From Saccostrea echinata (Eukaryota): a stretch of 64,000 nt of DNA. Positions 122 to 11,493 of this stretch are shown piece by piece (the stretch's first letter is position 1; every line of letters starts with the position of its first letter). The stretch lies in NCBI RefSeq assembly GCF_033153115.1, contig NW_026889811.1:7874001-7938000 (forward strand). The letters run 5' to 3'. The translations under genes and the position numbers were made by a program. The notes below the pieces were generated by a model. It was not told the origin of the DNA and ran no database searches. It saw nothing but the letters and a program-made list of their open reading frames with translations.

Positions 122-3100
122 AGTTACAATACAATGGGATTTGATGTTGTCAATCCAGAAGCCATTTTCCACCAAGTTTCCAGTTCTCTTCAGTAACTCC
201 TTCAACTGGTTCAGGGTGAAAGGTCGCACCAGGTTTCTGATGTGTACCACATTGGACACTGGATTTCTGGGAGGAGATGGGCTCCTTCTGGCTGCTGTTG
301 GTTCATCTGGTTCTATCAATGGTTTTGGTCTACTGATTTGTCTAATGATTTTTGGTTCTGTTTCTATCAAAATATAGAAAGCCAAAAAGAATGAAATATT
401 ACTTTCATATGTGAACATATAAATTTACACTTATTATTCTCAATAATTGTTCCTGCACCTATAAGCACAACCATGTGATTTCCAATCTGAAAACAATAAG
501 AGCCCTTCCCAAACACCCAACAGTTGCCAACTTTTCATAAAGCATATGCATTTTTTTTTTCATTTCATCTAAAATTATCCCCTAAGTTAAATTCCCTCTT
601 CTTTTTTAAAAGGCATTGTACTACATGTAAAGATATACAACGAAATCACCAATTTCCATGGGGGTTTAATTTTTGTTGTTTTCAAGGTATGAAAAGACCC
701 ACAAATTTATGTCCACCATGAAATGTAATTTTTCACATATATTATTTTTCATAAATTCTTCATCCACGAAAACAAATTCCAATGAACCTATTTTTTTGGC
801 CTCAAACCACAAAACTCTGACACCAGGAAAATGTGTCATTTTACAGTAAGAGGTTAATAAAATAATGATCCCAAATTTTCCAAGCACCCTGGGCACCTAT
901 TGGAGCAAATAGGTAAAGCTATTCCAGTAAAAACATTTCTACTGAGGTGGATAGCCCCCCTTACTTTTCTCAGGTGAGGATTCCTCTTTTTTCTCCACTT
1001 TCCTCGCCGGCTCCTCCTGGTCACCAGTGCCTTCCCCTTGCTCCTCATCTTCACTCTCCGATTCCTTCTCCTTGTTTTCATCTTCATCCACAACCTCTCC
1101 CTCTGACCGATCATCCCCTTCATCACCCTTCTCCTCATCTTCTCGCACAACCTATTGAGTCAACATCAAAATAAAACAATGGATTTAGAATTTGTTGACA
1201 ATTTAACCTTGCTTACACTGAAGCCACACTTCCTGATTGTTACATTATGCAATGTTTAATGGATGCTTAGAATTGTGATAAACTGAACAGATTTAAGCTT
1301 TTAAGCTCATGGAACTTGATGCTAAGCTTACAATTGTTCTTTGAATTTTAATCTCCTGTGGGTTTTCCTCAGGTTCATTCTCCTGATCTGAGATCCTCTC
1401 ATCTGGAAGATCCAGATCCAGGACTGGCTCGGATATAGGACTGGATTTTATGTCTGGAATCAGCTCCTGTAAAAATTACAGTTTTATAATTTTTAATTCA
1501 AGTGTTTAGCATTTTTTCTTAGGATAATTTTTGATTTACATGCAGAACTCTATGTAAAATGATACTGGTGTATTTTTTCCCCTTTTTTTGAACTAATTTT
1601 TGTTGTTGTTGTTGTTGTTTTAATTAAACAAGGTTTGAAATTTGAATAAAAAGATTCATGTATACTGCTAAACAATAACATATAGAAGGATGAACCTTGA
1701 GTGACTCTGTACTGAACTCTATACTAGACAGCCTTTTATTCTTGGCCTGGGGGGTAGTGTTGCTGCTTGACCTGGCGGATCCCCATTTCCTCTTCCGAGC
1801 CGGCTTCTCATGGGGTTCCTCTTGCTTTTTCTGGTTCTTGTCATCTGCTAATCAGTAAACAATGACATGATTATATATGAATTATGAAGGCATAAGGATC
1901 GAAAACCTGGATCATATACATGCAAGAACTTCATTGTATTTTTTTTAAATGATAAAACATATCAATCATTTTGATCCTAATGACCAAGACCTTTCATCAA
2001 GTCATTGTAAAACTGAAAGTGTCTTTTCTTTATTCAACTTTTATTTCTGTGGTCAATGCACAAGTATGAAAACAAGAAATTGAAAAGAACACAAGATATT
2101 ACAAAACATAAGAACCCTGACAATTATTTCTGTAATCTTGACATTGAAATTGGTTACAATGACCTTAAAAACTAATGATACCTTCCTTTAACATCCTCTA
2201 TCTGTAAAGAGGCTGTGATATCAGAAGCATGTAATGTATGAACCATTATTCCTTTTTCACAATGTCAAACATCTGGTTTTAGAGTAAAATTTTGAAGGAA
2301 CCATTTCAAAAATTAACTGGCACTGTATGCCAATCTAATGATCAATTTATTTTGGCATATACAGTAAAATTTGTCTAATCTCAGTAAACTGAACAATGCT
2401 GGATTCATGAAAATTGGTCCAATTAGACAAATTCTGGATTGGAGGACATTTTGAACAATTGATTTTACTGACAGGGACTTATACTTAACTTCATAATAGA
2501 CAATATTCGATTATACTCAACATCCACATTAGACAAGTTATACTGTTTTTTGTTTTTTGTTTTTTTTTTGTCATAACATTTTCTCAATGTACCAGAAAAT
2601 AAAAAAGCTGTTGAAAACCCACTTTTTTTATTTAAGAAAAAAAAATTATGTGCAAAAACCTGATGAGGGAACTGTTTGTTTTTCACTCTTTTCGTCTGTT
2701 CTCTCTTCCTGTGAAATATAATGAAATGAAATCCAACAATTAATCAAAATCACACAAAATGAATTTTTGTCAAACATGACTTTTTTACTTAAACTATTCC
2801 AAATATTTCTTTGCATATCAATTTAAACTGCCAGAATTCAAGTCATTGAAAATTCATTAACTCTGTATTACTGTGTTGATTATGTCTGGTTAAAAAATTT
2901 ACTTTAATATTAATGTTTTTCTAATTATCTTTTTTTTTAAAATTAGGCTGGTGGTGGCCCCACCAGTCATGCATCAGTGCACACTGTACAAGCATGACTG
3001 ATCATGACCTGGCCTGCTGCAACAAAAACATCACATGATTACTGAAGCAAAAATACCACCAATACTTGAGTGCTGCACTACGACTTCTGAACTATGACCT

Positions 3101-6100
3101 CAGTTAAGGGGTGATGCCAAAACAAACTAGTATTTCCAGCGTCTGATGCTATCTAGTCTACGAGCAATAGGGATGAACGAGAGAAGGGACGTTAAATCGG
3201 TGGATTCCCCCAAAAATAACGATAGTGTCCTGGCTTTGAATGTCTGTTAGACAAAGTGAACAATGATACAGTGGGTCATGTCCCAAAAACTTTACTGCAT
3301 TCACTAGACAAACAATCCAACGAAGACAGGGTCACAAAATGTAGTGTCCCAAATTATCAGTGTCCATAGTTGTTAATAACTATGAACAATCCAACGATGA
3401 CAGTTGTTATTAACTCATCCAACGATGAGACTGATGTATCCACAAAAGAAGTGGAGTTAACCATGAACATTCCAATCCCTGGTGTGGTAGTGGTCCCAAG
3501 GTGTAGCCAAAGGGTCCATAGTTGTTAATAACTATGAACAATCCATCAATGAGGCTGCATTGATCCGAAAAAAGGTGAGTAATGGAGATCACTTAATAAT
3601 CCAAGGATAGTTCACAAAATAAAGTGACAAGGGTTCATAGTTGTTAATAAACTATGAACAATCCATCGATGAGGCTGCAGTGATCCGAAAAAAGGTGAGT
3701 AACGGAGATCACTTAATAATCCAAGGATAGTTCACAAAATAAAGTGACAAGGGTTCATAGTTGTTAATAACTATGAACAATCCAATGATGATTTCAGAAT
3801 TTCTTAATGTTTGCAGTGTTTCTTGAAAATAAACAATCCAATAGCAGATCCAAAATTCATTTCTTGGTTGCTAACCTGGTGGCTTATACTTTAAGTAGAT
3901 GCCAACAAGGCAGTTTAGTACACAGATAATCCTGTATTTTTGTGTTTATGACTGGAACAATGAATAAGAACTTGGTAGAGACTGAGGATTCTGGTACAAT
4001 GAATCCTATTTCACTTTTTTTTTTTAAAAAAAAGTTCACAACATTGAGGTCAATTGCACAACACTCCTTGACTTCTTGGAATAATTTTTTTTAACAGAAA
4101 ATATCCTTCAACAATGTTGGTGTCCAATGTAGAAATCATTTCAGAATAATAAATAAATATAGGAAACTATTTACTGTATAAGGAATAAACGTCCTTCTAT
4201 AAGATTACATACATTCAAGTTTGTAGGATATAGGAATCTCATAGCTTAACTCAATATGGACTGCAAGGAGCTGGAAAATTTACGTCACTGGCTCAACATT
4301 TGGCTTTCGCTGTGATTACTTCAGTTAAAGTGTCAATATTTATTCTGCACATCCTATGACTTCCTGTTATTCAATCTTCCAGCTTTTTAACAACAGACTC
4401 AAAGTTGCATCATAGCATATACTGTTCGAATATGTTCAAAATGTCAGAAGTTACATTTCAATAACAGCAGCAACTTCTGTATGTATCTTGTGTACACCTT
4501 TATACATTACGGAGGTGTAGCCAGACAGTTTAATAACGATGTTGCCATGTGGCTTAAGACGTTGCCAGATCTATGTGGCAATTGGTTCGGAAGGCTGGGG
4601 CACAGGGCAATGGGTGGCTGTTTAACCCTACTAGGGATTTCTTAGTAGACGGCAGCACAGAGAACTGGGTCATCCACACGTCCTTCTTCTCTCAATGTAC
4701 TATGCAGTATAAAATCTTACATCTCAGAAAAAAAGTGTACAAAAAAGGAGCAATTTCCCTTCAATTATCTTACTAGCATAAATCTTCACATACACCAACA
4801 CTTCATTAAGGACCCTCTATACACTAGAGGAAAAGATCTGTTGGACACTGAGAAAATTATAGTGTGTAAAGGTGTAAATATTGAGCTTATCTATAACATT
4901 TTTAACATAGGGTACTTTGCATTTACCCCCAGGGAAAATATTCAAAGACAATTTAGTACTGATGAACAGAAATCACTGTTGTTTACGTTAGTGGGCAAAT
5001 TACCTGCTAATGAAATGTTCAATCTATTCATCTTGGCCTATTAAAATGTTATGAAGGCTTGATTTGATCACAAATTAAGTAATAAATTGTACATTTCAAT
5101 TTATTTTATTCTCAATCAAAGGGCAGCTTACTTTATCTGCATAAAAATACCACAAAATCAGAACGAACTCTTTAATGTGCAGTGTATAGAGGGCTCTTAA
5201 ACGTATATGTGTATTGGCGAAAACAAAATATGAAATCAGGTCTTTATTAAAACTTTAATATCAAAATATTTAAATAAATTAAAATGAATGTTTTCCGGGT
5301 TGTCATCTCTATAAAACTACAAATCTTTAATAGATCTTTTTTTCAGTTATATGTTCTCTGGTTTCAATGATTGAGGTCATAAACAACAGATATTCACAGT
5401 GGACCTTTTAGCTCCTTTTCTGTAGTACTCTAGGACTAATTACAGCGATAACACCTACCTTGTCTGTGGTAGATGACACAGCATCTGACGGGATTTCCCC
5501 CTCTTCCACCTCCATTGATGTATCTCTGTAAAAAAGATAACTCCTACTGAACAAACTGATCTTTTCTCTGTTAAGTAGATTACAGAAGAAGTGTTAATAA
5601 CTTGTAGTGGTAGATAAAGGTCACTTCTACAGAGAAAATTTGCACCTCTTAAGAAATGGTAATTACCATGGACACTATAAAATTAGCAACTTTTACCGGT
5701 AATGCAAATATTTGTCCATAGGAAGGAAACATGGATGGCAGCTTTGGGTATGTACATGTATATTTTTTTTTTTTCTTCCTGTGGTATAACAATAATAAGT
5801 TGGCCTGGTACATTATAAATATGAATTGTTTGTGTGACTTTGCAAAACAATTTTTTTCTTACCCTATCAGCAAGTCAGACACATCTTTTGTCTGTTTATC
5901 CTTTGATGGCTGTTCTTTTGTTGTCTACAATAGAAAAATATGTTTATACAGTGTAAATTGAAATCTTTTATTAAAGTTTCTAGTTATTCCTTGTTATAAC
6001 CAAACTTTGATCCTGAAAAATTTTAACAAAAGAATGTCTGAAAACATTTTCTATCATACACCAAAGTATTTTGTGCAAAATAAAAATCTTGATGATGCCT

Positions 6101-9100
6101 ACATTACATAGTATTCTCTAATAAACAACAAGAATATTTTGCGTCACTTACACAATCTACTTGACAAGCCAAAATTTTTTGGTATTCTCTATCAAACATC
6201 AAGAGTATTTTCCTTCACATATACAATCTTCTTGATAATGCCTAAATCTTGCAAGATCTTTAAATATTTACCTTAACCACAGACACTGTGCTACCTGGCT
6301 GCACGGGAGATGTAGACCGAGACCTGCTCCGGAACTTCTTGGGTGACCTTGACCTAGACCTGTCAGACTCTGAGTAGGATGACCTTGATGATGACCTTGA
6401 GGAGGAACTGGAAGAAGATCCCGATCTAACACTTGAAGAAGAAAAAAGCAATATTTTAAATTGAATACATTAGATGATATTATTTCTGAAACTACAGGTA
6501 TGTATTTGTCCATTTACTTTAACAGGCATGTACAGGTACCTTGATCTTTTCTTTTGCTTTCTCTTTTGATCATCATCCTCAGTGTCTGATCCAGATGATG
6601 AAGAGGATGAAGACTTCTTCCTTGATCTTCCTTCTCTCTTTTCTGAAAATTAAAAAAAAAATTAGCAAATCTTCCTTCTTGTTGAAAATCATACAGATCA
6701 AACAGCAGCGTTTTGAATTTACTTAGAAAATCTTGGTGGAAAGTTTATTCCCAACAGTGAAGAGGACTGTAACAATGATTCCCAGTCAAATAACACTTTT
6801 TGGACTATATGTGTGCGTGTGTGTGGTGTGGGAGGGGGGGTATTTCTTTTTATCTCAATTCTGTTACTGGGAGATGTAGAATTAAGCATACCCCCCCCCC
6901 CCCCCCACCAGGTAGTTTTTGCTGGAATAGCCATCACATCTTTGAGGAGGTTTTACCTTTTCTTATCTCTGCTTGCTCTTTCTCCTTAGTCTCTTTCTCA
7001 TCCTTTTCTTTGGCTACTTTTTCAGTTTTCTTTCTGGCTTCCTCCTTATCTTTAGCTTCTGTTTCAGCCTTTTCTTTTGCTGTCTCATCTGCTTTCTTTT
7101 TTGCTTCTTGTTCTGCTTTTTCATTAGCCTGTTTTTCAGCCTTCTCCTTAGCCTGTTTTTCAGCTTTCTCCTTTGCCTCTTTGTCGGCCTTTTCCTTAGC
7201 TTCTTTTTCAGCTTTTTCCTTAGCCTCTCTTTCAGCTTTTTTCTTTGCTTCTTTTTCCTTAGCCTCTTTTTCAGCCTTCTCTTTAGCCTCTTTTTCAGCC
7301 TTTTCCTTAGCCTCTCTTTCAGCTTTTTTCTTAGCCTCTTTTTCAGCCTTTTCTTTAGCCTCTATTTCAGCCTTTTCCTTAGCCTCTCTTTCAGCTTTTT
7401 TCTTAGCCTCTTTTTCAGCCTTTTCTTTAGCCTCTTTTTCAGCCTTTTCCTTAGCTTCTCTTTCAGCTTTTTTCTTAGCCTCCTTTTCAGCCTTTTCCTT
7501 AGCCTCTTTTTCAGCCTTTTCTTTGGCCTCTTTTTCAGCTTTTTCCTTAGCCTCTCTTTCTGCTTTTTTCTTTGCTTCTTTTTCAGCTTTTTCTTTAGCT
7601 TCTTTTTCTGCTTTTTCCTTGGCCTCCTTTTCAGCTTTTTCCTTAGCCTTTCTTTCAGCTTTTTCTTTTGCCTCCCTCTCAGCTTTTAATTTGGCCTCTC
7701 TTTCAACTTTTTCCTTAGCCTCTTTTTCAGCCTTCTCTTTAGCCTCTTTTTCAGCCTTCTCCTTTGCCTCCTTTTCTGCCTTTCTCTTTTCCTCTTTTTC
7801 TTTTTGGAGCCTTTCTTTTTCTTCCCTTTCAGCTTTTTTCTTTTCTTCCCTCTCCTTTGCTTCTCTGTCTGCTTTCTTTTTGGCCTCTTTTTCTGCTCTC
7901 TCCTTAGCCTCTTTTTCTTTAGCCTCTTTTTCAGCCCTTTCTTTAGCCTCTTTTTCAGCCTTTTCTTTAGCCTCTCTATCGGCTTTATCTTTTGCCTCTT
8001 TCTCAGATTTTTCAATCTCTAATCTCTTTTCTTCTTCTGCCTTTCTCTTTTCTTCTTTCTCTTTTTGTTGTTCCTAGTACCATAATATAAGAAATATCGA
8101 ATTAATATCGAAAATATTCACTGTAGACACACTGTTTATGTCATCATGAATACTAAACAAGCATAAAACCCAACAAACAAGATATATATGTTTCTGACAT
8201 TTTTGGATATTGTTATGAATCAAAAATGAGATATATGTACAGTATCTGATATTTTTTACAATGCTCTTATTAATAAAAACATTATGAGGACAAGTGTTCA
8301 GTAGGAAAATTATTTGTATCAATAAACATATAGTATACAGATTCTCTAAAGTGGATACATATATATACAGAGGGGCGCCATTGCTTCACTGAACTAAGGT
8401 AAGTACATAAATATACATGCACTTAATTTAAATTTTTCTTCTGTTGCCATTCTAAATCTGCTCAACAGTAAGCGTCCCAAACACTAGTCTTGGATGTAGC
8501 TTTTGAGGACCCAGACGGTCACCTAGAGACTATTCTACATCCCAAACTAGAAAAAAGTTTATAGTTGTGCTAATACATTTTTTGTAGAGGAAAGGAGATC
8601 TATTCAATAAAAAATGCATAACTTTGCACAGTTAAAGTCATTTTTTTTTAATTACTAACTGAAAAGTTTTCAATTTGAGTTGTACATATATTTTACTGGT
8701 ATTTTTGAAACATTATATTTGAACAATCCCAATACTTAATTCCTGTATCCACAACTTCCGTTGTTTTCTCACTTTCCTCTACTATTTCTTTAAGGTCTCT
8801 AAAAAAGCACAGCTTTATCTTGTTAATAAGAGTTCTATAAATACCTCTGCTGCAGCCACTTCCTGTGTGGAGTCTCTCGAGTCTCGGGAGGTTTTCCTCC
8901 AGCGTTTGCTTCTGGAACTTCTAGAGGATTCTGGACTTTCCTCAACAGTCTGACTGACATTTGGAGTTGTCTGTAGGGCAAATAATATTAATTTTTATTT
9001 CAAGAAGATTCATCTAGTATCTCAAAGATTGTCTTGTTCATCAATGCTTTAGATCACAAGAGAAATCTTATCGTGAAATTAAGTAATTATTGCATTTCCT

Positions 9101-11493
9101 GAGATGTCCAAATGAAAATAACAATTCACAATGTATAAGTACAGAGAAAAGTGTCTAATCCAACACCTGAGCAATTCATTTCACTGTGAACTCTGACATT
9201 CATTTTCATTCCCATTTTACTATTTTCCATGCTCATTACACTGTGTAATCTGACACCCTGTCTATTCTGACACAAAATTTGTCTACCAGTGCATGTTGGA
9301 TTAGACAGGTTTTACTGTAAAATAATGTAAAGGGAAAGACTCCATCAACAATAATGACATACTACCTTTTCTTTGACATCCCCACCATTGGATGGCTCAC
9401 CCTTCCCAGTCTCTGGAAAGCTTAGTTTGGTAGGTGTCTTTGTCGGACTTGGATCACCAAAACTCTTGGATGGACTTTTCTTGGTTGGACTTGACTCGGA
9501 CTCATCCTGCGAGTTACCAGATTCTTGACTGTCTTCTTCTGAAAACAAGAAAACAAAAAAAATGTCACATCAAAAAATTATACTTTATAGGTCATCTATG
9601 TGGCAGAACACAAGACTTTTACATTAAGAACAAGTTATGTATGCTTTTATGCAAACTTTTTTAAAGCTTTATTTTTACAGTATCAAGCATTGTTCACCTC
9701 ATTACCTGAAAATCTTTTCTTCTGTTCCACAATTAGTTCCCTTTGTTTGGCCAAATATTGTTTGATGAAGTCATTTTCTATTGCTGCACCTTCCTGTATC
9801 TTTTTATAACAATCACTCCATATTAAAACATGGACTTTTTAACATGCAAACAGCACTTTCAGTGGATTATGTAATGAATATATCTGAGATTTCCTTCTTA
9901 TGGGGACATAAACTCTGAGGATAATCATGATTAAGTTTAATGCTTGGAATTCGATCATTATAATTTTTTTTTTTTTTTCCAAAAATAGAGAATAACGGAG
10001 AATACAAAATACCTTTTGGTTTGGAACTTCATCTAAAAAACAAAACAGAATATTGAAGAGTTATAAACCTATTAATTAGAAATATTCATCTCTGTTCAAT
10101 TCATTTGAGTAATTATGGGTAATACTCCCTTAAAAAGAAAACATCCTCTGTAACTGCGGTGAAAATCTAGCACTGTGTACGAAATAGAGGATAAATCTTT
10201 AATTTAAAAAATGGTGAATTTTGGTAATCTTTCTTACCAGTTGTTTCTGCATTCTGTAGTTTCTCAAATTGATAGTGCTGAAAAATATAAATGTAATACA
10301 ATAAAAATCATAATTTATAATTGGTTCAAAAGACTAATAAAAACAAAAATTTTAACAAAATGTTCATTATTACAGTAAAACACATGTACATGTAGTGCAG
10401 CATTTGGGTCAGCGAAATTCACTTTGGTACTGGGCACGGATCCAAATACTTTTAACATACATGCTGTTGCTTTACGTGTGAACTTATTCACCATTTCTCC
10501 TTGGCTTTTTCTAAATATATATTTTTTATTTGACCAACAGCAGTCAGGAATGAGAATCTGAAGATTAATTTTAATTGGCCTTTATAGCCAAATGAAAAAC
10601 CTTCACTTTTTGCACTGTAATTTGAATACCTTTTGAAATATTATATCCCAAACGAGCTTTTATATCCCTTCTGGGCGATTGGTCCCAACCTATATAAATC
10701 AATTTTTACCAGGTTGGGACAACTCGCCCATATGGGATATAATAGCCCATTTGGGGTATAATATCCCAAATAAGATATAAATTTACAGTGCAAAAAAAAA
10801 AAAAAAAAATTATTTTGGCTATAAATATCTAAAATTCGCATCAAGTTACTTATAAAGGAATAACATTTTTAAAGGAATAACACGTTTTTCTGTATGCCCA
10901 CTGTTTAGGAGATTGATCCCGTGGAAGTTCCTAAACTTCTTGGGGATCAATCTAACAAACTGTAGGGGTGCAGAAAAACTTGCTTGCCAAAAGTTATTCC
11001 TTTTAAAGTATTTTGATGCGGATTTATGATATTTATAGCCAAAATAAAAATTTTCATTTTTTTGTACAATAAATTTATATCCCATTTGGGATATTATATC
11101 CCAAATGGGCTATTATATCCCATTCAGGCGAGTGGTCCCAACCTGTTAACGCTTTTCCTTCATAAACTTTTGTTATATTATCAATACCATTGGGGAATTA
11201 TTATATCAAAACCAACTTAAAAATAACTTCTCAATTCCCTAAGTGCACTTTCTACCACAACTACACTTAGACCAGTACTTAACGGTCATAACGCAGACAG
11301 ATCGCACACGTTTCGTTGTGAACCAATTTTACTCTCATGTGTTTTATATTAAACGCACCGCTTTAAGTCTCTCTATTAGGTCTTTCTTTGTTCCATTCTT
11401 AGGAAGCTTATTTTTGTCGCATTCCTTTTTAAGATCAACAACTCTGAGTTCATGTAGCGGTTTTCCTCCAACGGTAAAATCATCGTCCTCCAT
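122..11493 (-). CDS. ACIN1: Apoptotic chromatin condensation inducer in the nucleus (Acinus), spliced; 3' end lies beyond the left edge of the window
   Basis: Phase-consistent GT-AG exons (minus): 11493-11359 (SAP domain [45 protein letters not shown]), 10277-10238, 10032-10013, 9793-9706 ([11 protein letters not shown]), 9538-9366, 8970-8845, 8073-6957 (EK/A repeat), 6642-6540, 6431-6272 (RS-rich), 5924-5863, 5525-5459, 2708-2660, 1847-1696 (RKRKWGS...STESLK), 1466-1332 (ELIPD), 1151-965, 363-122 ([31 protein letters not shown]...[10 protein letters not shown], Acinus RRM). About 952 aa in window. Confidence 0.93.
3066..3157 (-). other. Candidate stop-containing (poison/decoy) cassette exon in ACIN1
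   Basis: Minus strand: TTTAAC branch point, pyrimidine tract GTCCCTTCTCTCGTTCATCCCTATTGCTCGTAG, then ACT AGA TAG (in-frame stop); candidate donor CAA|GTATT at 3066/3065. Confidence 0.45.
3362..3784 (-). repeat. Intronic array of four 32-33-nt palindromic repeats with spacers, in an ACIN1 intron
   Basis: GT(C/T)CATAGTTGTTAATAACTATGAACAATCCA at 3362, 3514, 3633 and 3753; spacers of 120, 87 and 87 nt. Confidence 0.9.
4810..5196. mobile_element. TTAA-flanked MITE (Kolobok-like)
   Basis: TTAA|GGACCCTCTATACACT ... AGTGTATAGAGGGCTC|TTAA; RR...YY termini. Confidence 0.7.
6957..8073 (-). repeat. Coding tandem repeat (EAKEKAEK-type, 24-nt unit) forming one ACIN1 exon
   Basis: On the + strand TTAGCCTCTTTTTCAGCCTTTTCC-like units repeat for ~1 kb; the minus frame is open and E/K/A/R-rich. 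Confidence 0.9.
10710..11144. mobile_element. MITE with ~130-bp TIRs, preceded by an extra terminal copy at ~10583-10692
   Basis: CAGGTTGGGAC...CATCAA (10710-10844) is inverted to TTGATGCG...GTCCCAACCTG (11012-11144); a third copy of the arm lies directly upstream. Confidence 0.7.

What the first reader, a model, noticed from the sequence alone, without database searches (positions are those of the whole stretch)
3300..3876. Repeat-spacer array of RNA hairpins with a UGGAUUGUU motif cluster inside an ACIN1 intron
Seen: four copies of a 32-nt unit (3362, 3514, 3633, 3753) that fold on the transcribed minus strand as a 10-bp stem with a 6-nt loop (GUUCAUAGUU-AUUAAC-AACUAUGRAC). The main variable stem base is a U-G wobble on the minus strand but a mismatch on the plus strand, consistent with RNA-level constraint. 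Spacers (120, 87, 87 nt) each hold a second small hairpin with a U-rich loop whose outer stem pairs differ between copies (UCCAC-UUCUUUU-GUGGA at 3439-3455; UCAC-UUUAUUUU-GUGA at 3612 and 3732; a similar one at 3333). AACAATCCA (UGGAUUGUU in pre-mRNA) occurs exactly six times in 530 nt. There is no TIR or TSD. The block lies between a donor-like CAG|GTTAG (3876) and a strong acceptor (3158). Established: splicing-regulator genes often autoregulate through intronic elements and decoy or poison exons (SR proteins, SF3B1, OGT). Inference: a multivalent RNA-protein binding platform controlling retention or NMD of Acinus pre-mRNA, or a processed small-RNA array.
Basis: partly seen in the sequence, partly recalled or inferred. 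Interest (0 to 1): 0.75.

Follow-up and report, generated by a model that had tools for sequence, protein, structure and literature searches.

The report
SR-protein site array in Acinus intron
An oyster gene for the splicing factor Acinus carries, in a long intron, a locally duplicated cluster of short predicted hairpins and UGGAU motifs that match lab-defined SRSF1 binding sites and likely help set how much working mRNA is made, though binding, splicing effect and conservation are untested and an old neutral repeat is nearly as likely.

Summary
The array is real at the stated coordinates, in the 2,750-nt intron 5458-2709 of a minus-strand ACIN1 gene of an oyster. It is not a repeat-spacer array. 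Three of the four hairpins lie in one recent 120-nt tandem duplication, and the two 87-nt spacers are near-identical copies. The U-G wobble is one transition shared by two copies; 0 of 10 pairs show a compensatory change. No Rfam family matches, and none of four unit 12-mers is in the Pacific oyster satellite list. New: the recurring core is UGGAU (11 copies, unchanged in all 8 module copies). 14 of 17 GGA sites have C at -4 or +6, the two registers found by SELEX for SRSF1; that offset pair ranks first of 100. A weak donor (3876) and a pyrimidine-rich, CpG-retaining acceptor (3158) flank the array. Best reading (0.4): an amplified SR-protein element steering unproductive splicing of Acinus pre-mRNA. 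Rivals: neutral minisatellite (0.33); functional element read by another protein (0.17). Against: the sites are paralogous, the hairpin buries the +6 register, and no reads or orthologous introns were seen.

The parts
2709..5458 (-). Host intron of ACIN1, 2,750 nt, phase 0; the longest intron of the gene part that lies in the window
   Evidence: Exon model 8073-965 is open with 0 stops; neighbouring introns 108-812 nt; first intron 1,081 nt
3280..3876 (-). The array: shuffled modules A (UCAUC-NNU-GGAUU), B (10-bp hairpin) and C (CAC-U-rich-GUG hairpin); 20 GGA sites
3510..3791 (.). Recent tandem duplication, period 120, 2.4 copies, 95% matches; holds three of the four hairpins
3753..3778 (-). 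Hairpin B copy (U-A at the variable pair)
3633..3659 (-). Hairpin B copy with 7-nt loop
3514..3539 (-). Hairpin B copy (U-G wobble; the change also makes a new GGA with C at -4)
3362..3387 (-). Hairpin B copy (U-G wobble); identical to the 3514 copy over about 32 nt, flanks diverged
3456..3468 (-). Degenerate half copy of hairpin B (5' arm only)
   Evidence: read from the sequence; family D5
3402..3415 (-). Top of hairpin B only (AGUU-AAUAAC-AACU) on a different lower context
   Evidence: (fifth match of the pattern)
3312..3792 (-). Eight module-A 16-mers with 5' ends at 3792, 3731, 3673, 3611, 3553, 3429, 3401 and 3327; UGGAU unchanged in all eight
3773..3788 (-). 15-of-16 match to the double-register SRSF1 RRM1+2 ligand tested by NMR in PMC7813835
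3732..3747 (-). Module C hairpin (duplicate at 3612-3627)
3439..3455 (-). Module C hairpin, 5-bp stem
3333..3346 (-). Module C hairpin, 3-bp core
3868..3879 (-). Candidate cryptic donor CAG|GTTAG (intron side starts at 3876)
   Evidence: score 6.4, 3rd of 166 GT sites; use not shown
3877..3951 (-). Candidate 75-nt cassette exon with an in-frame stop at codon 2
   Evidence: acceptor score 7.2, stop; use not shown
3158..3279 (-). Candidate cryptic acceptor with C-rich pyrimidine tract; CpG observed/expected 0.92 against 0.18 in other ACIN1 introns
   Evidence: use not shown
5459..5525 (-). Upstream coding exon
2660..2708 (-). Downstream coding exon; matches the start of Saccostrea ACIN1-like P0001
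1696..1847 (-). Exon with the ACIN1 RKRKWG...STESLK signature
   Evidence: 84% identity to Saccostrea cucullata ACIN1-like protein; signature across orthologues
11359..11493 (-). First coding exon, SAP domain
   Evidence: Pfam PF02037, E 3.7e-11

Best explanation
The array is a locally duplicated block of UGGAU motifs and small predicted hairpins in an oyster ACIN1 intron, and it likely works as a multivalent landing pad for SRSF1-type SR proteins that would shift the intron between productive splicing and an unproductive outcome (retention, or use of the flanking cryptic donor and acceptor). Shown: host gene, array, motif excess, unchanged core, C at -4/+6, and early stops in every alternative outcome. 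Inferred: SR proteins with a pseudo-RRM bind the GGA cores; bound just downstream of the weak donor at 3876 and upstream of the acceptor at 3158 they stall or redirect spliceosome assembly; the products are detained or removed by NMD, so Acinus dose follows SR-protein activity. The 120-nt duplication would add sites. The hairpins would space or partly mask sites and need not be the recognised element.
For: UGGAU occurs 11 times in 577 nt (9 after dropping one duplicate copy) against shuffle means of 1.7 and 1.5; 0 of 500 shuffles reach it. A mismatch-only scan finds 8 module-A copies, all with UGGAU intact. Among 5 non-reference copies the core has 0 of 25 mismatches against 15 of 55 elsewhere; P 0.018 for any 5-base block being spared. 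GGA density is 33.5/kb against 10.6 in other ACIN1 introns and 8.4 on the opposite strand. PMC7813835 (passages and section 9) reports SRSF1 RRM2 on GGA with RRM1 on C at -4 or +6. Here 16 of 20 GGA (14 of 17 after collapsing) have one of these, and (-4,+6) ranks first of 100 offset pairs. The literature search term (UUGGAU) did not include either C position. The array holds the four top-scoring of 1,268 600-nt windows for such sites. The acceptor region at 3158-3279 keeps 5 CpG where about 1 is expected (P 0.003, or 0.025 on a milder baseline; one of 7 segments looked at). A human ACIN1 intron is retained in a regulated way (0.08-0.24; PMC4737145 Table 2). 16 of 121 ACIN1 proteins fetched (14 named fish records, 2 unnamed contigs) begin in intron-like sequence 27-54 residues before RKRRW, where this intron lies 33 codons before it. 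Five runs from 2 studies, guessed to be RNA, hold 57-68% of the words of 2900-4000 (weak, kind is a guess).
Against: The GGA sites are paralogous, so the binomial P of 6e-5 is far too strong. Outside module A my hand grouping gives 6 of 8 (P 0.02), and merging further gives 4 of 6 or 3 of 5 (P 0.11-0.22). The +6 C is predicted paired in hairpin B (unpaired probability 0.0 at 4 sites in local folding), and most GGA cores are less than half unpaired, whereas SRSF1 was assayed on short single strands. The double-register pattern also occurs twice on the plus strand of the array, and its window-wide count is not above chance (21 against 15.7). C at -7 is as common as C at -4. PMC7813835 itself says the C positions are less clear in eCLIP data. 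CpG in the array is not clearly raised (0.25-0.35). Early stops follow from almost any intron. No splice junction, read depth or orthologous intron was seen, and I could not place the human retained interval on the protein.
Confidence: 0.4

Rival explanations
1. Neutral local minisatellite: an old 60-70-nt unit was duplicated, eroded and re-duplicated; palindromic copies are homogenised by template switching or conversion, and motif excess is a by-product of copying.
For: 2.4 copies at 95-98% identity. Another ACIN1 intron holds a 71-nt two-copy duplication at 6111-6247, so local duplications occur here without such motifs. No compensatory changes. Any repeat enriches its own k-mers and is strand-biased for them. 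CpG in the array is near the intronic level.
Against: UGGAU is spared within diverged module copies (P about 0.02). Modules recur in shuffled order with different linkers. The two best C offsets equal the published SRSF1 registers. The block sits between a donor-like and an acceptor-like site in an unusually long intron of a splicing-factor gene.
Confidence: 0.33
2. Functional RNA element read through its structure by another protein: AUUAAC loops by a STAR or branch-point-binding protein (motif recalled, not from a call), or the U-rich loops by Acinus itself as an autoregulatory sensor.
For: Hairpin B is identical over about 32 nt between the two independent lineages while flanks diverge, and its top recurs a fifth time on another base. 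Local pair probabilities are 0.82-1.0. Human Acinus iCLIP gives a U-rich motif enriched in introns (PMC4986896 passages).
Against: 0 of 10 pairs covary. With a 150-nt span the hairpins drop to 0.1-0.7 because copies pair with each other. Folding z-scores are modest (-1.0 to -3.2). U-rich loops are common in this AT-rich DNA.
Confidence: 0.17
3. Relic of a transposable element or dispersed satellite (for example the central repeats of a Helentron).
For: Oyster genomes carry many short tandem arrays in Helentron elements (PMC7492417, PMC8268682; search listing and abstracts).
Against: No second copy in 64 kb. None of four unit 12-mers is in the C. gigas satellite supplement, where the control 14-mer from the window's 166-bp satellite was found twice. 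The shuffled module order is unlike a homogeneous satellite.
Confidence: 0.06
4. Array processed into small RNAs (snoRNA-, miRNA- or CRISPR-like).
For: Repeated hairpin with intervening sequence in an intron; C-box-like RUGAUGA words occur, but on the non-transcribed strand.
Against: No Rfam match at gathering threshold and only two chance-level hits, E 2.3 and 4.9. No tRNA. 10-bp stems are far shorter than pre-miRNA stems (established knowledge). Spacers are duplicates, not unique.
Confidence: 0.04

Closest known systems
Poison-exon and detained-intron elements of splicing-factor genes (SRSF6 exon 3, SF3B1, FUS; human ACIN1 retained intron chr14:23537881-23538684 in PMC4737145)
   Same: Host is a splicing regulator; long intron with cryptic donor and acceptor; every alternative outcome gives an early stop; the intron position seems to match a junction where fish ACIN1 models start in intron-like sequence.
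   Different: Those elements are mostly single-copy and highly conserved; this one is a modular tandem array with a recent duplication. Use in RNA and conservation are not shown, and identity with the human retained intron is not established.
SRSF1 RRM1+2 bipartite site (C at -4 or +6 of GGA; PMC7813835, PMC13036500)
   Same: GGA core with C at exactly these offsets in 14 of 17 sites; one 16-mer differs by one base from the tested double-register RNA.
   Different: Defined in vitro on single short strands of the human protein; here sites are arrayed, intronic and partly buried in predicted stems.
Multi-copy structured regulatory repeats such as the MAT2A hairpins or Xist A-repeat (recalled, not checked in a call)
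   Same: Several short hairpin-plus-motif units in one RNA region.
   Different: No sequence relation; those have shown ligands and cross-species conservation.
Oyster satellite arrays (CgiSat family, Helentron central repeats)
   Same: Short tandem array in an oyster genome.
   Different: Single locus in the window, shuffled modules, no 12-mer match to the C. gigas satellite list.

Membership tests
Poison-exon / detained-intron element of a splicing-factor gene | Host gene encodes a splicing regulator | tested here: met
   SAP domain, ACIN1 signature exon
Poison-exon / detained-intron element of a splicing-factor gene | Alternative outcome introduces a premature stop | tested here: met
   First stop at codon 2-39 for 6 of 6 outcomes modelled; true of most introns, so weak
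Poison-exon / detained-intron element of a splicing-factor gene | Retention or cryptic splicing seen in RNA | not tested
   No reads were laid; five runs of guessed kind hold most words of the stretch
Poison-exon / detained-intron element of a splicing-factor gene | Sequence conserved in the orthologous intron | tested here: inconclusive
   No orthologous locus recovered; only the last 30 nt of the intron are seen to resemble Saccostrea, 7 of 10 translated residues
Poison-exon / detained-intron element of a splicing-factor gene | NMD sensitivity or nuclear detention | not testable with these tools
   Needs experiment
SRSF1-type bipartite site | GGA core with C at -4 or +6 | tested here: met
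   14 of 17 after collapsing the duplication; best of 100 offset pairs; sites not independent
SRSF1-type bipartite site | Site accessible as single strand | tested here: inconclusive
   Predicted unpaired probability of GGA 0.0-0.6; +6 C paired in hairpin B
SRSF1-type bipartite site | Binding by the protein | not testable with these tools
   Needs CLIP or pull-down
Repeat-spacer array (CRISPR-like) | Unique, unrelated spacers of near-constant length | tested here: not met
   Two spacers 98% identical, the third partly homologous at 65-70%
Known structured ncRNA (Rfam) | Match at family threshold | tested here: not met
Conserved RNA structure | Compensatory base-pair changes | tested here: not met
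   0 of 10 pairs among five paralogous rows, one of them a poorly aligned half copy; orthologues not available
Oyster satellite / Helentron repeat | Dispersed copies or match to catalogued monomers | tested here: inconclusive
   None in the window or in the C. gigas list by exact 12-mers; the five-species supplement was unreadable and no genome is held

The most novel reading that the evidence does not exclude
A copy-number-tunable SR-protein sensor: hairpin B buries the +6 register, so folding and SR binding exclude each other, and the array acts as a cooperative switch that couples SR-protein activity to the dose of the EJC-associated factor Acinus. It would sit in an intron that has stayed regulatory from molluscs to vertebrates while its sequence was rebuilt by tandem amplification.
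Probability: 0.15. Interest if true: 0.7.

Novelty: new variant of a known kind. Interest (0 to 1): 0.4.

Why it matters
If functional, it is a natural array of the bipartite SRSF1 site so far defined in vitro, and a direct link from SR proteins to Acinus/ASAP dose. It would also show a regulatory intron gaining strength by tandem duplication rather than by ultraconservation. It is compact enough to test in one minigene. My searches showed no description of this element or of an ACIN1 poison exon in molluscs, within a library that lacks most subscription papers. If neutral, it is an ordinary intronic minisatellite.

Tried and rejected
No whole genome is held, so genome-wide copy number is unknown. 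Exact hairpin patterns: 0 matches in metagenome, viral and prokaryote genome contigs. ACIN1 loci in metagenome contigs: 576 pattern matches, none confirmed. Natural stop-to-stop frames through the array used as protein queries, hoping for spurious gene calls on relatives' contigs: none. Rfam and tRNA scans: nothing. No reads were laid, so splicing pattern and cross-species conservation stay open. The cluster look-up for names of intron-starting proteins could not be made. A search for the human interval's coordinates, some of them recalled, found only PMC4737145. Supplements not seen that may bear on claims: PMC5932609 file 1, PMC4737145 file 1, PMC11136912 archive. Rejected readings: U1 or U7 snRNA variant (scattered resemblances recalled from memory, no Rfam support); C/D snoRNA (C-like boxes on the non-transcribed strand); a 29-31-nt exon near 2200 that I first guessed (breaks frame; P0001 skips it). 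Earlier-finding look-ups by place and sequence returned nothing.

Full report
Setting. The window carries a minus-strand ACIN1 gene. The first coding exon is a SAP domain (PF02037, E 3.7e-11), and the exon at 1847-1696 is 84% identical to a Saccostrea cucullata ACIN1-like protein and has the RKRKWG...STESLK signature seen across orthologues. Nine exons from 8073 to 965 join with 0 stops. With the 166-bp satellite arrays of the window (a 14-mer from them is in CgiSat01b and CgiSat09), this points to an oyster; the species was not determined. The finding lies in the intron 5458-2709, 2,750 nt, against 108-812 nt for its neighbours.

Observation. Two facts change the picture. First, 3510-3791 is a 2.4-copy tandem repeat of period 120, with 98% identity between the two full copies, so three of four hairpins and both 87-nt spacers come from one recent event. 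Second, the 120-nt spacer is partly homologous to the others (65-70% over 37 nt). The block is therefore a modular, eroded tandem array, not repeats with unique spacers. Three modules recur on the pre-mRNA strand in shuffled order: A (UCAUC-NNU-GGAUU, 8 copies), B (the 10-bp hairpin; 4 intact, one half copy, one top only) and C (CAC, U-rich loop, GUG; 4 copies).

Structure. Hairpin B has local pair probabilities of 0.82-1.0, but with a 150-nt span these fall to 0.1-0.7 because the palindromic copies pair with each other; with no practical span limit they are 0.66-0.96. Folding z-scores on the minus strand are -1.0 to -3.2, and the minus strand is more stable than the plus in 2 of 4 paired segments. 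No pair shows a compensatory change (0 of 10); among the four intact copies only one pair varies, U-A to U-G, a single transition shared by two copies. Structural selection is thus neither shown nor excluded. Rfam gives no match at threshold and two chance-level hits.

The motif. A scan that counted only mismatches to one module-A copy found 8 hits, all within 5 mismatches (background 0.14 expected), and all keep UGGAU. In the 5 non-reference copies left after collapsing, the core has 0 of 25 mismatches and the rest 15 of 55; the chance that some 5-base block is spared is 0.018 (copies are related, so this is rough). A literature search for UUGGAU led to SRSF1: its RRM2 binds GGA and RRM1 binds C at -4 or +6 (PMC7813835, passages and section 9 read; PMC13036500, passages). 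In the array 16 of 20 GGA sites, or 14 of 17 after collapsing, have C at one of these offsets, and this pair is the best of 100 offset pairs (next 12). The stretch 3788-3773 differs by one base from the double-register RNA tested by NMR and is the best of 8 window matches within 3 mismatches (chance mean 4.1); the filler uridines of that RNA are probably by design, so only the C and GGA positions count. GGA density is three times that of other ACIN1 introns and above that of its exons (33.5, 10.6 and 27.1 per kb).

Against this reading. The sites are paralogous. Outside module A my grouping by hand gives 6 of 8 (P 0.02), and 4 of 6 or 3 of 5 with further merging (P 0.11-0.22). C at -7 is as frequent as C at -4. 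The +6 C is predicted paired in hairpin B and most cores are less than half unpaired. The double-register pattern also occurs twice on the plus strand of the array and is not enriched window-wide. Another ACIN1 intron has its own small duplication (6111-6247).

Splice signals. The donor at 3876 ranks 3rd of 166 GT sites in the intron. The acceptor at 3158 has the second-richest pyrimidine tract of 153 AG sites but a middling matrix score; acceptors at 3951, 3821, 3243, 3041 and 3016 score higher on a matrix from only 14 sites. The 122 nt before the 3158 acceptor keep 5 CpG (observed/expected 0.92) where other ACIN1 introns have 0.18; the array itself has 0.25-0.35 (seven segments examined). 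All 6 modelled outcomes stop within 2-39 codons.

Context from relatives. No orthologous intron could be fetched and no reads were laid. Five runs from two studies, guessed to be RNA, hold 57-68% of the words of 2900-4000, which fits retention but may be DNA or pre-mRNA. The Saccostrea model P0001 begins in the translated last 30 nt of this intron, 7 of 10 residues alike, including the codons that spell a further UGGAU. 16 of 121 ACIN1 proteins fetched start in intron-like sequence 27-54 residues before RKRRW; the oyster junction is 33 codons before it. Fourteen are fish gene models and two are unnamed assembled contigs, so annotation artefact is possible. A human ACIN1 intron is retained in a maturation-dependent way (PMC4737145, passages, Table 2 and section 15); I could not place it on the protein. 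Human Acinus itself binds U-rich and GAAGAA-like motifs (PMC4986896, passages), and human SRSF1 binds an ACIN1 alternative exon (PMC2556390, passages). PMC8248162, PMC9178013 and PMC5932609 (passages) added nothing on this intron.

Verdict. I commit to an amplified SR-protein element steering unproductive splicing of Acinus pre-mRNA (0.4), ahead of a neutral minisatellite (0.33), a structure-read element with another ligand (0.17), a transposon relic (0.06) and a small-RNA array (0.04). It would work like the poison-exon and detained-intron elements of splicing-factor genes, but membership is not shown because use in RNA and conservation are untested. Novelty: new variant of a known kind, if functional. 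Interest 0.4.

Noticed in passing
window 3573-3582 and 3693-3702: A perfect donor consensus (AG|GTGAGTAA) on the plus strand; on the pre-mRNA strand it reads as an anti-donor, U1-like decamer, predicted in a 15-nt loop in the 3693 copy. It could pair with 8 of 10 bases of the 3876 donor. Both copies come from the recent duplication.
   Followed up: partly
window 3723-3729 and 3603-3609 (minus): TATCCTT, the core of the U12-type donor (consensus recalled), without the proper first base.
   Followed up: no
window 4480-4720 (minus): Second GC-richer block in the same intron (45% against about 30%) with C-rich pyrimidine tracts; candidate further cryptic exon.
   Followed up: partly
window 3243-3009 (minus): Cluster of further acceptor-like sites (3243, 3041, 3016, 3013), some scoring above real acceptors of the gene.
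   Followed up: partly
window 2709-2740 (minus): Last 30 nt of the intron resemble the translated start of Saccostrea P0001 and hold one more UGGAU at 2735.
   Followed up: yes
window 6957-8073 (minus): 1.1-kb coding exon made of a 24-nt repeat encoding a long Lys/Glu/Ala tract in Acinus.
   Followed up: no
window 6111-6247: 71-nt two-copy duplication (81%) in another ACIN1 intron.
   Followed up: no
window 14614-14983, 21177-22009, 30042-32701, 38311-38928, 44388-44946: Arrays of the 166-bp oyster satellite, CgiSat01-like by a shared 14-mer.
   Followed up: partly
P0033, P0059, P0003 (proteins from unnamed contigs): ACIN1 frames that start in intron-like sequence at or near the junction studied and run on through spliced exons; may be retained-intron or internally started transcripts.
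   Followed up: partly
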